A model generated the notes under the pieces. That model was not told the DNA's origin. It did no database searches and saw only the letters and a program-made list of their open reading frames with translations. A DNA stretch of 10,357 nucleotides from Octopus sinensis (lineage: Eukaryota), in contig NW_021827448.1 in NCBI RefSeq assembly GCF_006345805.1, positions 1 through 10,357 of the forward strand, given 5' to 3'. A program made the position numbers and the translations under genes. Shown piece by piece: positions 2,417 to 8,851 of this stretch. Position 1 is the stretch's first letter. Each line of letters begins with the position of its first letter.

Positions 2417-2866
2417 AATATATATATATATATATATATATATGCTGGCCACTTGATAATTTCGACACTTAAATATCGATATTTCCTCATATATATATAA
2501 TATATATATAGATTATATATATATATATATATATATATTATATATATATAACCTAATATATATATAATATATATATATATATAATGTATATATATAATAT
2601 ATATATTTCCCTCTGTCCTCCCACCTCGGGATCTTTCTTTCTCCTATGTTTCCGACGAAGAGCTCCGCTCGAAACGTCATGCCCTCCTTCTTTCCCTTTT
2701 TTCCTGAGGCGCCTAATAATACTTTTAATTGTTCCACCCCTCCTTCGCGTTGTTGTCTTTTTGTTTTCTTGTTTGGATTACTTTATATATATATATATAT
2801 ATAATATATATTATATATATATATATATATATATATATATTATATAATATATATATATATATATAA
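2417..2866. repeat. Interrupted (TA)n microsatellite arrays (about 2417-2443, 2489-2606, 2784-2866)
   Basis: Directly visible TA dinucleotide runs separated by short unique modules. Confidence 0.95.
2652..2678 (+). ncRNA. Variant minimal hammerhead-like motif
   Basis: CCGACGA-A-GAGC(TCC)GCTC-GAAA-CG-TC: variant core, perfect 4-bp stem II, GAAA, ACGT palindromic stem III, GUC triplet. Stem I does not pair. Confidence 0.45.
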
Positions 2867-2938
2867 TAGAAATTCGGGGTGAGTACTTGATAATTATAAG
2901 CAACCTGTGTATACCGTTTGGTGGTGTAGGTGGTGGAG

Positions 2939-3519
2939 TAAATTGATCAAATAAAATAAAAACATGATGCGAAGGATTCAGCGGTACATATGTTTTCGGT
3001 CCTTTATTAGACAGATTTATAACAATGCATAATGTATGTCTGTGGCCTTCTTCTTCACCGCGCCAACAGCTTCCACAAGACAATGTGTTATCAATCAAAA
3101 ATTCTTGGTTGGGGATGCAAATCCTCTCATTCACGTACGACATAATGCGGCAGCAGCATAGAGTTGAGGCGTCCATCTCTTTCTTCTCTCAATGTAGAAT
3201 GAGGAAAATTGGATGTTGAGGTAATTAAATAATAAATACATATATAGAGGTGAAGATTGAGGGCGAGAGTTCGGGACGAGGGAAAAAAAATGTATAAAAA
3301 GTGTAAGTATAAATAATATAAAATGTAGAGGATAAGGGTTGTAAGTAGATGTAAAGGGGGTATAAAGAAATATAAAGTAAAAATAGAAATAGAAATAAAA
3401 GTAAAAAAACCTGATAAAAAACATGATAAAAGTGTAAAAGAATGTAAAGATAAGGGATGTATAGAGGTTATGGACCAAGCATGGTGGTCAGGAGATTGAT
3501 AAAATTTAGTTGTAGAATT
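2939..3519 (-). repeat. Left arm of long inverted repeat (putative Penelope-like pseudo-LTR)
   Basis: Reverse complement of 4844-5437 with scattered substitutions and indels. The ORF track gives near-identical peptides (MVHNLYTSLIFTFFYTFIMF) on opposite strands. Confidence 0.95.
2981..3062 (-). ncRNA. Decayed hammerhead-like motif in the left arm
   Basis: The minus strand reads GCGG-TGAAGAAGAAGGCC...GGACC-GAAAA-CATATG-TA-CCGC. Stem I GCGG/CCGC is intact but the core is damaged (C3 lost, GAA duplicated, extra A). Confidence 0.5.
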
Positions 3520-3534
3520 ACATCCCGCTTTCCT

Positions 3535-3670
3535 ATATGTGCGTGTATATGTGTATGTGTGTGTGTGTGCGTATGTATGTGCACATACGTGTACGTATGT
3601 GTACATATACATATATATGTACATGTGCGTGTGTGTGTGTGTGTGTGTGGGTGTGTGTACGTGCATATAG
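3535..3670. repeat. Compound (TG/TA/CG) purine-pyrimidine microsatellite
   Basis: Alternating GTGT/ATAT/GCGT runs. Confidence 0.85.
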
Positions 3671-3944
3671 GGTTCCCTGCATTTTCCCCCTATATATCAA
3701 ATTTTTCTCCCATATATGACTTCTTTCCCTAAATATTTCTTCTCCTACACCCTATCCTCCCTATGTAGTCTCTTTAATCCCCTATATCTATAACCCTTTC
3801 ACATTTCTCACTCAGATGTTGAACGCACCACCGCCAAACTCCATTTCCCACCCTTCCAATTTTCAGTTCCCCCCGCCCGCCCCTACGTTAAACACCACCT
3901 CTAACTTTCAACCACCTTCATCTCATGTTAAACTTACAAAATTA

Positions 3945-4230
3945 ATATTTTATCTTATTTTATTTTATTTTTATTTTTACTTTTATTTTTACTTTTTCCT
4001 ACTTCCTTTATTTTTATTTTTATTTTTACTTTTATTCTACTTCCATTTATTCTCATTTTCATTTTCATCCCTTACCTTAACTCTTATAATTTTTATAATT
4101 CTTATACTTCATTTCTAACTATTACATTGTATTTCTTATTTTATACTGTATTTTTTATTTCTAATCTTTACCCTTACCCTCATTCTTACCCCTAACTTAT
4201 CGCTTTACACCTCTATATATGTTTATTTAC
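3945..4230. repeat. Pyrimidine-rich low-complexity tract (TTTTA/TTTTTA-like units)
   Basis: Nearly G-free plus strand with degenerate TTTTAT repeats. Confidence 0.8.
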
Positions 4231-4254
4231 TTACCTATGGATCCACCTTTTGAA

Positions 4255-4750
4255 TATACGAGCGTCCGCGTACGTGTGTATACGCATACATACATATGCA
4301 CGCGCATATATGTACATGCATACTTCGATATCTTATAGCTATACCCATGTGCGCGTGTGTCTCTGTGTGTGTGTATGAGTGTATATGTGCACGCACATAC
4401 GGACACACCAGCCGTGTGTTGCGTGCGCGTATTGACATGAGTACGGGATTCTTTACATACGTTCTTATACACATCCTTTAATATCTTATACCTGGACCTA
4501 GAGGCGTGGGCATATACGTGTGTGTATGTAGTGATGGCGCGCGTATATACATGTGAGCGTGTACGCGCGTAATGTCCGTGTATATATGCGGATATTCTGT
4601 TGTATGTATGTGTGTGTACGCGCGTGCGTGTGGGTGCGTGTGTGTTTATGTACGTGTTTACACGCGAGTGCGTGTGTATGCTTATAGGCTTGGAGGCGTA
4701 TATGTACGCGTGTATGTGGGTGCATATATCCATGATGATATGTATGTACT
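4255..4750. repeat. Degenerate alternating purine-pyrimidine (TG/CG/TA) tract
   Basis: Long imperfect RY alternation, e.g. GTGTGTACGCGCGTGCGTGTG. Confidence 0.8.
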
Positions 4751-4843
4751 AGAAGTCCATTTAATTCAAGGAACCAGATTAAATGCTCATCAGCTCTGAT
4801 TTACAACGCATTAAGTCCCCAGACAAACTGTTGATGTACTGAC

Positions 4844-5437
4844 AATTCTACAACTAAATTTTATCAATCTCCTGACCACCATGCTTGGTCCATAACCTCT
4901 ATACATCCCTTATCTTTACATTCTTTTACACTTTTATCATGTTTTTATCAGGTTTTTTTTTACTTTTATTTCTATTTCTATTTTTACTTTATATTTCTTT
5001 ATACCCCCTTTACATCTACTTACACCCTTTATCCTCTACATTTTTATATTATTCTATACTTACACTTTTTATACATTTTTTAATCCCTCGTCCCGAACTC
5101 TCGCCCCTCCATCTTCACCTCTATATATGTATTTATTTTATTTACATTACCTACCTCAACATCCATTTTCCTCCTCATTCTACATTGAGAGAAGAAAGAG
5201 ATGGACGCCTCAACTCTATGCTGCTGCCGCATTATGTCGTACGTGAATGAGAGGATTTGCATCCCCAACCAAGAATTTTTGATGTAACACATGTCCTTGT
5301 GGAAGCTGTTGTGCGCGCTGAAGAAGGCCACAGAGACATACATTATGCATTGTTATAAATCTGTCTAATAAAGGCCCGAAACATATGTACCTCTGAATCC
5401 TTCGCATCATGTTTTTTATTTTATTTTGATCAATTTA
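4844..5437 (+). repeat. Right arm of long inverted repeat (putative Penelope-like pseudo-LTR)
   Basis: Starts AATTCTACAACTAAATTTTATC (rc of the left arm's inner end) and ends TTGATCAATTTA, running directly into (TA)n. Confidence 0.95.
5313..5393 (+). ncRNA. Type I hammerhead ribozyme-like motif in the right arm
   Basis: CTGAAGA at 5318-5324; stem II GGCC 5326-5329 / GGCC 5373-5376 with internal AGACA/TGTCT; GAAA at 5378-5381; palindromic stem III A-CATATG-T; GUA triplet ending at 5389. Stem I is weak in this copy. Confidence 0.65.
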
Positions 5438-7390: not shown

Positions 7391-7519
7391 TAATATTAAA
7401 TTAGAGATAAAACCTCTATTAGGCAAATCATACAATGAAAACTAAGCCAATACATAAGATTATTTAATTTATATTATTTAAATATATACAAAAATTATTA
7501 AAAAATATAATTAATATAA

Positions 7520-7583
7520 CACTACGATCGTTTCATGGCTGTTAATTTCTTTAAATTTTCGAGTTACAGTCATTCATCAGGTG
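7520..7583 (-). ncRNA. Minimal type I hammerhead ribozyme with intact catalytic core
   Basis: The minus strand reads CAC-CTGATGA-ATGACTGT...ACAGCCAT-GAAA-CGATCG-TA-GTG. Stem I is CAC/GTG, stem II pairs 7 of 8, stem III is the palindrome ACGATCGT, and the triplet is GUA. The predicted cut lies between 7523 and 7522. Confidence 0.8.
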
Positions 7584-7845
7584 GTTTAAATATTTAGCTT
7601 GGCGAGGTTTAATCAATATATATATATATATATTATATATACATTGTTGTATTTCGGGATGGGAATTTTTTTGCCAAATAAACACACTCACTATATATAT
7701 TCGTTCTTCACTTGTTTATTACTGTTCTTATTTTATGTCCATAGTCTGGAAGTCTTTCATTACACACCTGGGACCTCTTCAGCGACTTTTCGTCCCACGT
7801 ATCCTCTAATATTCGTATATATATATAAATAAATTTTATATATAT

Positions 7846-7940
7846 GATGTATGTATGTATGTATGTATCTATCTATCTATCTATCTATCTATCTATCTAT
7901 CTATCTATCTATCTATCTATCTATCTATCTATACATACAT
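7846..7940. repeat. (TATG)n-(TATC)n tetranucleotide microsatellite
   Basis: Directly visible. Confidence 0.95.
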
Positions 7941-7942
7941 AT

Positions 7943-8165
7943 TCTCTTATTCCTTTACTAGGTTCAGTCATTTGACTGCGGCCATGCTGGAGCGCCGCCT
8001 TTAGTCGAACATATCGACTCCAGGACTTATTCTTTGTAAGCCTAGCACTTATTCTATCGGCTCTTTTGCCGAACCGCTAAGATAGTGGGACGTAAACATA
8101 TCAACAACGGTTGTCAAGTGATAGTGGGGGGATAAACACAGAAGCACAAATACACACACACATAC
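7943..8165 (-). mobile_element. SINE family A 3' half
   Basis: TTCAGTCATTTGACTGCGGCCATGCTGGAGC..TTTTGCCGAACCGCTAAG..GGTTGTCAAG, extending up to the central microsatellite. Confidence 0.9.
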
Positions 8166-8211
8166 ACATATATACATATATACATATACATACATACATA
8201 CATACATACAT

Positions 8212-8610
8212 GGCGCAGGAGTGGCTGTGTGGTAAGTAGCTTGTTTACCAACCACATGGTTCCGGGTTCAGTCCCACTGCGTGGCATCTTGGGCAAGTGT
8301 CTTCTGCTATAGCCTCGGGCCGACCAAAGCCTTGTGAGTGGATTTGGTAGACGGAAACTGAAAGAAGCCCGTCGTATATATGTATATATATGTATGTGCG
8401 TGTATGTTTGTGTGTCTGTGTTTGTCCCCCTAGCATTGCTTGACAACCGATGGTGGTGTGTTTACGTCAACGTAACTTAGCGGTTCGGCAAAACAGACCG
8501 ATAGAATAAGTACTGGACTTACAAAGAATAAGTCCCGGGGTCGAGTTGCTCGATTAAAGGCGGTGCTCCAGCATGGCCGCAGTCAAAATGACTGAAACAA
8601 GAAAATAAAT
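8212..8610 (+). mobile_element. tRNA-derived SINE family A, full length
   Basis: GGCGCAGGAGTGGCTGTGTGG head with A and B boxes, complete body, and tail ending GACTGAAACAAGAAAATAAAT. Confidence 0.95.
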
Positions 8611-8662
8611 ACATACACACACACACACACACACACACACATATATATATATATATATATAT
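8611..8662. repeat. (CA)n(TA)n microsatellite
   Basis: Directly visible. Confidence 0.95.
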
Positions 8663-8780
8663 CATTCAACTACGGTAGTAGTTGGATAATATTCTTAAAG
8701 CAGCAATTTACTCACAAGCAGCATCTTTCAGAGCTTGTCACTAATTCAGTTCTTAACCAAGTCGATAACCGTTAATATTT

Positions 8781-8851
8781 CTGAAGAGGACTGGTCCTTA
8801 GCCCCATTTTGGCATCAAAAATTGAGATTTGGTCCAGTAGAAAAACGTTTA
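8781..8851 (+). ncRNA. Decayed hammerhead-like motif
   Basis: CTGAAGA at 8781-8787; stem II ACTGG-T-CC / GG-T-CCAGT; GAAA at 8840-8843; palindrome A-AACGTT-T; UUA triplet. Stem I does not pair. Confidence 0.5.

What the first reader, a model, noticed from the sequence alone, without database searches (positions are those of the whole stretch)
2606..8851. Multiple sequence-unrelated hammerhead-like modules clustered in 6 kb, most adjacent to TA microsatellites
Seen: motifs at 2652, 2981/5318, 7520 and 8781 share architecture but have different stems and different stem III palindromes (ACGT, ACATATGT, ACGATCGT, AAACGTTT); weaker ones lie at 4757 and 7745. CTGANGA alone arises by chance a few times per 10 kb, but repeated co-occurrence with stem II, GAAA and a palindrome does not. 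Inference: a diverse set of ribozyme-bearing mini-retroelements that home to (TA)n. Family-specific palindromes could restrict dimer cleavage to same-family RNAs.
Basis: inference. Interest (0 to 1): 0.7.

Follow-up and report, generated by a model that had tools for sequence, protein, structure and literature searches.

The report
Penelope retrotransposon tips with hammerheads
Most of these motifs are the end pieces of several different Penelope-type jumping genes that pile up in TA repeats, each carrying a known kind of RNA motif predicted to cut itself, so the cluster is real but ordinary.

Summary
Four of the six listed motifs are real type I hammerhead motifs of multicopy repeat families (2652, 2981/5318, 7520, 7745). 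Two are not (4757, 8781), and one outside the range was missed (10187). They are not a new class of mini-element. Three are traced to coding Penelope-like elements (PLEs): 2981/5318 is one two-armed, 5'-truncated copy of a Hydra-clade PLE with intact 842-aa relatives; 7520 is an internal-deletion derivative of a second Hydra-clade PLE; 2652 is the tip of a Neptune-like PLE. 7745 is linked to a PLE endonuclease in 2 of 19 loci; 10187 is a tandem retrozyme-like repeat. 3' ends abut (TA)n in 23 of 24, 22 of 24 and 29 of 29 copies of the three main families (control 8%). Palindromic stem III, many families per genome, inverted arms, tails and (TA)n targeting are all published PLE traits. Different palindromes should pair poorly with each other, but unrelated families share palindromes, so they are no family code. 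Cleavage is untested. The scan reached similar readings before on other DNA of this and other genomes.

The parts
2606..2783 (+). Family A: 3' tip of a Neptune-like PLE; minimal hammerhead 2652-2678 (core CCGACGA = U4C, stem II GAGC/GCTC, stem III ACGT, weak stem I)
   Evidence: 2270 first-look candidates; CCGACGA in 21 of 24 copies; RT/GIY-YIG ORF about 2.7-3.4 kb upstream in 4 of 6 stretches fetched; TA within 20 nt of the 3' end in 23 of 24
2866..3519 (-). Family B inverted arm, ending in the about 75-nt tail (2866-2940); damaged hammerhead copy at about 2981-3062
   Evidence: 94% to the forward arm; tail matches the pLTR-ORF junction of full-length copies; core broken in this copy
3520..5435 (+). 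Family B forward arm: 3' UTR of a Hydra-clade PLE, starting about 60 nt after the stop codon; hammerhead 5318-5389 (CTGAAGA, long loop II, ACATATGT)
   Evidence: 96% over 1.9 kb to L183, which carries a 769-aa ORF directly upstream; pLTR-ORF-pLTR with an 842-aa ORF in L231; core and palindrome identical in 24 of 24 copies
4757..4793 (-). Chance CTGATGA plus hairpin inside the B 3' UTR; not a hammerhead
   Evidence: No GAAA box, antisense to the element
7392..7615 (-). Family C: short internal-deletion derivative of a second Hydra-clade PLE; best-preserved listed hammerhead, 7580 to 7523 (CTGATGA, ACGATCGT)
   Evidence: 1632 candidates; long form with about 860 extra nt in 3 of 30 loci and a different deletion in 1; Hydra-like ORF upstream in 2 of 3 stretches; TA within 100 nt in 29 of 29, inverted upstream arm in 17 of 29
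7642..7815 (-). Family E: worn PLE tip; hammerhead 7782 to 7749 (family: CTGAAGA, GTCAC/GTGAC, AGATTT self-pairing through G-U)
   Evidence: 2977 candidates; inverted upstream arm in 10 of 19; GIY-YIG-like fragment in sense upstream of the inverted arm in 2 of 19 loci
8660..9737 (.). Family D: AT-rich repeat with a terminal hairpin; the 8781 motif inside it is not a hammerhead
   Evidence: 1014 candidates; extent; core and palindrome absent from the family
10020..10357 (-).
   Evidence: 2762 candidates; CTGAGGA in 12 of 19 copies; adjacent tandem copy in 11 of 19, inverted in 8 of 19; unit length
2784..2865 (.). (TA)n run joining the 3' end of A to the tail of B
5436..5625 (.). (TA)n run at the 3' end of the B forward arm
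7240..7390 (.). (TA)n run at the 3' end of C
7616..7641 (.). (TA)n run between the 3' end of E and the 5' end of C

Best explanation
The cluster is a pile of independent insertions of the 3' ends of several Penelope-like retrotransposon families, each carrying a type I hammerhead motif predicted to cut its RNA, likely placed by the elements' own endonuclease and reverse transcriptase into TA repeats. Shown: family membership, links to coding ORFs for A, B and C, fixed 3' ends at (TA)n, two alternative 3' ends about 70-85 nt apart, 5' truncation and inverted arms. Inferred: the GIY-YIG endonuclease nicks (TA)n, reverse transcription starts at one of two internal sites (giving the optional tail) and often stops early or switches strand, so most copies are short hammerhead-bearing tips. 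Each insertion leaves TA at its edge, so TA-rich spots collect several families. Inferred from published work: the short palindromic stem III lets two hammerheads of a tandem transcript (4.77 kb apart in family B) fold as a dimer, possibly with help from the element's protein. The single tips in this window are likely inert.
For: Multicopy families. B: 769-aa ORF upstream, three 842-aa open frames among 150 scored matches, pLTR-ORF-pLTR with a hammerhead in each repeat, Hydra motifs DKT, CxCX5C, CxxC, CxH as defined in PMC8557442 section 11. C and A parents. TA within 100 nt of the 3' end: A 23 of 24, B 22 of 24, C 29 of 29, G 11 of 19, E 5 of 19; control 7.9%. Two 3' ends: B 12 of 24 at 12 nt or less and 10 at 62-84; C 15 of 29 at 11 nt or less and 14 at 78-92. 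Palindromes without asking for them: 7 of 34 hits in 600 kb of genome against 0 of 64 in shuffles. Published traits: PMC4209133, PMC8557442, PMC11167929, PMC6765202.
Against: No cleavage data. Rfam found no hammerhead. Pfam gave no RT or GIY-YIG hit for the B protein; its assignment rests on motifs, homologues carrying PF26215 and a weak RT match to a Pfam-positive PLE protein (E 7e-7). No tree with named PLE references was built. No two-sided stem change among 6 B-type sequences on 7 pairs. E has weak TA association and a parent link in only 2 of 19 loci; G has none in 19. Copies examined were the top-scoring 19-29 per family, not a random sample. The window is richer in motifs than any of 60 control stretches under the strict count (2 against at most 1).
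Confidence: 0.9

Rival explanations
1. The modules are independent non-coding retrozymes that spread through small circular RNAs and only borrow PLE proteins.
For: Fits family G (about 355-nt unit, tandem in 11 of 19 loci, no ORF link) and in part short C, which outnumbers its long form 26 to 4 among 30 of 41 pattern hits. Retrozymes are described as PLE derivatives (bioRxiv 10.64898/2026.07.22.740005).
Against: A, B and C continue upstream into PLE ORFs; no adjacent tandem copy in 24 A, 24 B, 29 C or 19 E loci.
Confidence: 0.15
2. Stem III palindromes are family-specific keys kept by selection so that only same-family RNAs form cleaving dimers.
For: Homoduplexes of the 8-nt palindromes are far more stable than heteroduplexes (C/C -10.0, G/G -10.7, B/B -7.0 against B/C +0.9, B/G +0.9, C/G -2.1 kcal/mol). 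17 different majority palindromes among 19 multi-copy clusters (some clusters may be chance or worn).
Against: ACAGCTGT, ACGT, ACGATCGT, ACTCGAGT, ACATATGT and ACTCnGAGT each occur in unrelated motifs, and ACTCnGAGT also in published Hydra elements of other phyla. Whole-motif cofolding gives A/B -7.3 against A/A -8.2 and B/C -6.2 against C/C -6.8. Any two-sided change keeps a palindrome, so drift alone yields variety. Partners lie in cis in tandem units.
Confidence: 0.08
3. The motifs are chance matches in AT-rich DNA.
For: True for 4757 and 8781 and for the single-copy CTGACGA at 6734. Rfam finds none.
Against: 0 of 60 shuffles reach the strict count; 9 strict motifs in 600 kb against 2-3 in shuffles, 5 against 0 with stem I; cores conserved across family copies.
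Confidence: 0.02

Closest known systems
Minimal / palindromic-helix-III hammerheads of metazoan Penelope-like elements (Cervera and de la Pena 2014, PMC4209133; first two of four text parts read)
   Same: Type I topology, palindromic stem III, extra base between 9 and 10.1, several consensus families per genome, mostly solo motifs from truncated PLEs, pairs on opposite strands, U3-A8 core variant (seen here in another family).
   Different: B and C have long AT-rich loop II regions (39-53 nt between the boxes); A has U4C fixed in 21 of 24 copies and a U-U mismatch in stem I.
Hydra clade of C-terminal-endonuclease PLEs, including Hydra-1_Obim of Octopus bimaculoides (Craig et al. 2021, PMC8557442; section 11, passages and supplement tables read)
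   Same: DKT, CxCX5C, CxxC and CxH motifs, no CCHH, hammerhead near the 3' end, (TA)n targets, inverted 5'-truncated arms, tail on one end.
   Different: Family B is a different family from Hydra-1_Obim (other hammerhead and protein by eye); unit 4.77 kb with a 2.2-kb 3' UTR against under 3 kb; tails of 70-85 nt against 30-40; even 8-nt palindromes are commoner here than in the published table.
Neptune clade PLEs (Neptune1_Ap row in the PMC8557442 supplement)
   Same: Family A parent has DKG, a CX4CxxC linker, CCHH in a C-terminal GIY-YIG, and resembles Neptune1_Ap by eye.
   Different: About 3-kb CA-rich 3' UTR; ORF copies seen are frameshifted; no tree was built.
Poseidon PLE of Anolis, PAc (Frangieh et al. 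2024, PMC11167929; main text read)
   Same: Two internal start sites of reverse transcription give an optional tail; AT-rich target.
   Different: PAc hammerhead overlaps the ORF start; in B it lies about 240 nt upstream of the open frame. PAc cleavage needed protein and was not needed for insertion; untested here.
Metazoan non-LTR retrozymes (PMC7229834, passages; bioRxiv 10.64898/2026.07.22.740005, first two of five parts)
   Same: Family G: non-coding, about 355-nt head-to-tail unit with a type I hammerhead.
   Different: G arrays seen are partial tandems with inversions, not long multimers; A, B, C and E are not tandem.

Membership tests
Type I hammerhead (PLE type) | CUGANGA and GAAA boxes in order with UH after stem III | tested here: met
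   B 24 of 24, C 28 of 29, E 15 of 19, G 12 of 19 family copies keep the core; A carries U4C, a known natural variant with lower activity in vitro (PMC3088659 passage)
Type I hammerhead (PLE type) | Stems I and II form | tested here: inconclusive
   G 7 bp and C 3 bp of stem I in the window; B family 4 bp but 1 bp in the window copy; 90% of cells paired, no two-sided change in 6 sequences; A stem I has a mismatch
Type I hammerhead (PLE type) | Self-complementary stem III | tested here: met
   E pairs through G-U
Type I hammerhead (PLE type) | Self-cleavage, as monomer or dimer | not testable with these tools
   No raw RNA reads offered
Type I hammerhead (PLE type), motifs 4757 and 8781 | Both boxes, stem I and palindrome conserved in the family | tested here: not met
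Penelope-like element (EN+) | RT plus GIY-YIG ORF upstream of the hammerhead | tested here: met
   B, C, A; E partly; not found for G
Penelope-like element (EN+) | Partial tandem forming pLTRs, inverted 5' arm, optional tail | tested here: met
   L231, L233, L234, L366; inversions and two 3' ends
Hydra clade (B, C) | DKT, CxCX5C linker, CxxC and CxH, no CCHH | tested here: met
   B protein; C parent by tblastn at 31-37% and motifs read in L366
Hydra clade (B, C) | RWK motif near the N terminus | tested here: inconclusive
   B reads IRWAAY; the aligned homologue P0043 reads MRWKAY
Hydra clade (B, C) | (TA)n insertion preference | tested here: met
Hydra clade (B, C) | Placement in the RT phylogeny | not tested
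   Named reference proteins were not available to the tools
Neptune clade (A) | CX2-5CxxC linker and CCHH in a C-terminal GIY-YIG | tested here: met
   L369 translation; Pfam GIY-YIG E 0.001, below cut-off
Neptune clade (A) | Placement in the RT phylogeny | not tested
   Likeness to Neptune1_Ap by eye only
Non-LTR retrozyme (G) | Non-coding 150-450-nt tandem unit with type I hammerhead | tested here: met
Non-LTR retrozyme (G) | Circular and linear unit-length RNA | not tested
Non-LTR retrozyme (A, B, C, E) | Tandem non-coding units | tested here: not met
   0 adjacent tandems in 24, 24, 29 and 19 loci; coding parents found

The most novel reading that the evidence does not exclude
Octopus Penelope-like families, more than a dozen in one genome, use mutually incompatible stem III palindromes as pairing keys, so that co-expressed elements cannot trigger each other's RNA cleavage; long loop II regions and a recurrent U4C core would tune the ribozymes to work only with their own partner and protein.
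Probability: 0.08. Interest if true: 0.6.

Novelty: new member of a known kind. Interest (0 to 1): 0.2.

Why it matters
As found, it adds undescribed-looking members to known PLE clades in an octopus-type genome: a young Hydra-clade family with intact 842-aa copies and a long 3' UTR, and a short deletion derivative that shows how a non-coding hammerhead element arises from a coding one. These give a ready panel for the open question of what PLE hammerheads do, since families with different palindromes sit in one genome. It does not reveal a new class of element.

Tried and rejected
Rfam scan: no hammerhead match. Pfam on the B protein: no RT or GIY-YIG hit. Linking the modules to the Neptune-like ORFs found by the GIY-YIG search: neighbours only, for example C beside a GIY-YIG fragment in L149. 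Reading 8781 as a U3-G8 variant: no stem I and no palindrome in the family. Reading 7745 or 2652 as a permuted hammerhead (lead from earlier notes; PMC10085705 abstract and outline only): ordinary type I order fits the family copies, so not pursued; permuted forms were not scanned for. CTGACGA at 6734: single copy. RNA evidence: no RNA holder listed; contigs of four runs whose RNA status is a guess cover the B hammerhead and ORF but show no ends, strand or level. First pair count was misregistered by one column and is not used. MFE folds do not recover the active hammerhead fold except partly for G. Lunse et al. (PMC5785218) is not held; it may contain heterodimer tests I could not see. One search for hammerhead, heterodimer, retrotransposon, palindromic gave 2 unrelated papers; this is a thin search. 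Sequence look-ups of A, B, C and G in earlier scan notes found nothing. Pfam did not confirm the mariner-like fragment. Supplements of the bioRxiv preprint could not be seen.
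Full report
Setting. The window is a whole small contig of a 2.72-Gb animal genome. Close homologues of one of its elements are annotated in Argonauta, and earlier scan notes call the genome octopus; I treat it as octopus-type by inference.

Observation. A descriptor (CTGANGA, stem II, GAAA, palindrome, H) hits 2652(+) with one core mismatch, 5318(+), 7580(-) and 10187(-) with one mismatch. The strict count is 2 against a mean of 0.017 in 60 shuffles, none reaching 2; the bare core is 6 against 3.0. Rfam returned 62 matches at E up to 10, none a hammerhead. 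I searched the own genome with each module. First-look candidates were 2270 (A, 2652), 1458 (B, 5318), 1632 (C, 7520), 1014 (D, 8781), 2977 (E, 7745) and 2762 (G, 10187); 40 were scored each and 20-30 fetched. All counts below are on these top-scoring copies, the window's own copy left out.

Which motifs hold. In family copies the core is CCGACGA in 21 of 24 (A), CTGAAGA in 24 of 24 (B), CTGATGA in 28 of 29 (C), CTGAAGA in 15 of 19 (E) and CTGAGGA in 12 of 19 (G). D fails: TTGAAGA in 15 of 19, the palindrome in 1 of 19, no stem I. 4757 has no GAAA and is antisense within B. 2981 is the inverted arm of the same insertion as 5318, and both window copies are damaged.

What they belong to. B: of 20 longer stretches fetched, four carry a long ORF of this family directly upstream of the 1.9-kb segment shared with the window; L183 holds 769 aa. 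A search with its C-terminal 165 aa scored 150 matches, three with 842-aa open frames. L231 is pLTR-ORF-pLTR with a hammerhead in each repeat, 4769 nt apart. The protein has DKT, YRDD, CxCX5C, CxxC and CxH and lacks CCHH, the marks of the Hydra clade in PMC8557442 section 11. Pfam does not recognise it; many of its 44 homologues carry PF26215, and it matches a Pfam-positive PLE protein weakly over the RT (E 7e-7). The window copy starts about 60 nt after the stop, has an inverted arm, and has the tail on one end only, the layout of figure 2 of PMC8557442. C: a 25-nt pattern gave 41 hits, 30 fetched; 26 are the short form, 3 have about 860 extra nt at the junction and 1 a different deletion. 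Two of three upstream stretches carry a broken Hydra-like ORF, and L366 has a 5' pLTR with the C hammerhead. So the window copy is a deletion derivative. A: copies extend over 2.6 kb of CA-rich sequence to an RT and GIY-YIG ORF in 4 of 6 upstream stretches; in three the hammerhead lies 2.7-3.4 kb downstream in the adjoining locus. It has DKG, CX4CxxC and CCHH and resembles Neptune1_Ap by eye. E: a GIY-YIG-like fragment precedes the inverted arm in sense in 2 of 19 loci. G: unit of about 355 nt, tandem in 11 of 19 and inverted in 8 of 19, no shared ORF link.

TA targeting and clustering. (TA)4 lies within 100 nt of the query's 3' end in A 23 of 24, B 22 of 24, C 29 of 29, G 11 of 19, E 5 of 19; control positions 7.9%. 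For D the query ended inside the element, so its 0 of 19 says little; at its true left end it is 4 of 19. B and C each show two fixed 3' ends 70-85 nt apart, as expected from two internal start sites of reverse transcription (PMC11167929). In 60 stretches of 10 kb taken at fixed round positions, strict motifs numbered 9 against 2-3 in three shuffles, 5 against 0 with stem I; that scales to some tens of thousands genome-wide, roughly. None of the 60 had 2 strict motifs, and 2 of 60 had 2 under the looser count, so the window is in the upper tail; it also has 25 TA runs against a mean of 11 and was picked for this trait. A review states that PLEs tend to insert into or beside earlier copies (PMC6765202, passage).

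Palindromes. Without asking for a palindrome, 7 of 34 hits in the 600 kb are perfect palindromes against 0 of 64 in shuffles; of 24 multi-locus families 10 are perfect, 5 pair through G-U, and several of the other 9 are palindromes with one central unpaired base. So self-complementarity is selected, as published (PMC4209133). Against it as a code: ACAGCTGT, ACGT, ACGATCGT, ACTCGAGT, ACATATGT and ACTCnGAGT recur in unrelated motifs, whole-motif cofolding is not selective for A/B or B/C, and the published Hydra table already shows varied and shared palindromes.

Mechanism. Shown: structure, linkage, ends. Inferred: nicking at (TA)n, target-primed reverse transcription from two internal sites, early stops and strand switches, dimer folding of hammerheads within tandem transcripts. 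For the Anolis element cleavage needed protein and was dispensable for insertion, so the role of these hammerheads stays open. A's U4C is a known natural variant with lower activity in vitro (PMC3088659, passage).

What is known. PMC4209133 describes many hammerhead families per genome, solo motifs from truncated PLEs and opposite-strand pairs. PMC8557442 lists an octopus Hydra element with hammerhead and (TA)n preference. PMC13282606 (passages) counts 31 recently active Penelope-like families in O. vulgaris and does not mention hammerheads. I reached the PLE and Hydra reading, before seeing the scan's notes, which report the same kind of cluster elsewhere and also reject the palindrome code; they are not independent evidence. 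Verdict: real, well explained, new members of known kinds; interest 0.2.

Noticed in passing
   Followed up: partly
L231:4164 (-) and 13 other loci: Antisense hammerhead-like motif (CTGAAGA, 4-bp stem II, GAAA, AAGCTT, C) inside the B ORF just before the YRDD motif; no stem I, so probably chance.
   Followed up: partly
L124, L311, L080 and family A: CCGA (U4C) cores with intact stems recur in several unrelated motif families of this genome, which suggests the change is tolerated.
   Followed up: partly
L145, L157, L161-L164: A young Neptune-like family with a 781-aa ORF and an upstream second ORF carries the U3-A8 core variant TTGATAA with ACATGT.
   Followed up: partly
window 8660-9737: AT-rich repeat with a terminal hairpin and internal inverted repeats; may be a Helentron- or MITE-like element (recalled label, untested).
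   Followed up: no
window 1473-1867, 5625-6003, 6183-6438, 6628-6699, 7948-8181, 8212-8605, 9775-10015: Several copies of abundant SINE-like repeats, most beside TA or CA runs; resemblance to octopus tRNA-derived SINEs is recalled, not tested.
   Followed up: no
window 196-720 (+): Frameshifted fragment that looks like a Tc1/mariner transposase by eye; Pfam gave no hit.
   Followed up: partly
window 2606-5435: Window copies of A and B differ from their families by many single-base insertions and deletions; on a small unplaced contig some may be assembly errors.
   Followed up: no
L252, L256, L143, L146: Hammerhead motifs with about 80-100 nt between the two core boxes occur in this genome; standard models would miss them.
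   Followed up: no
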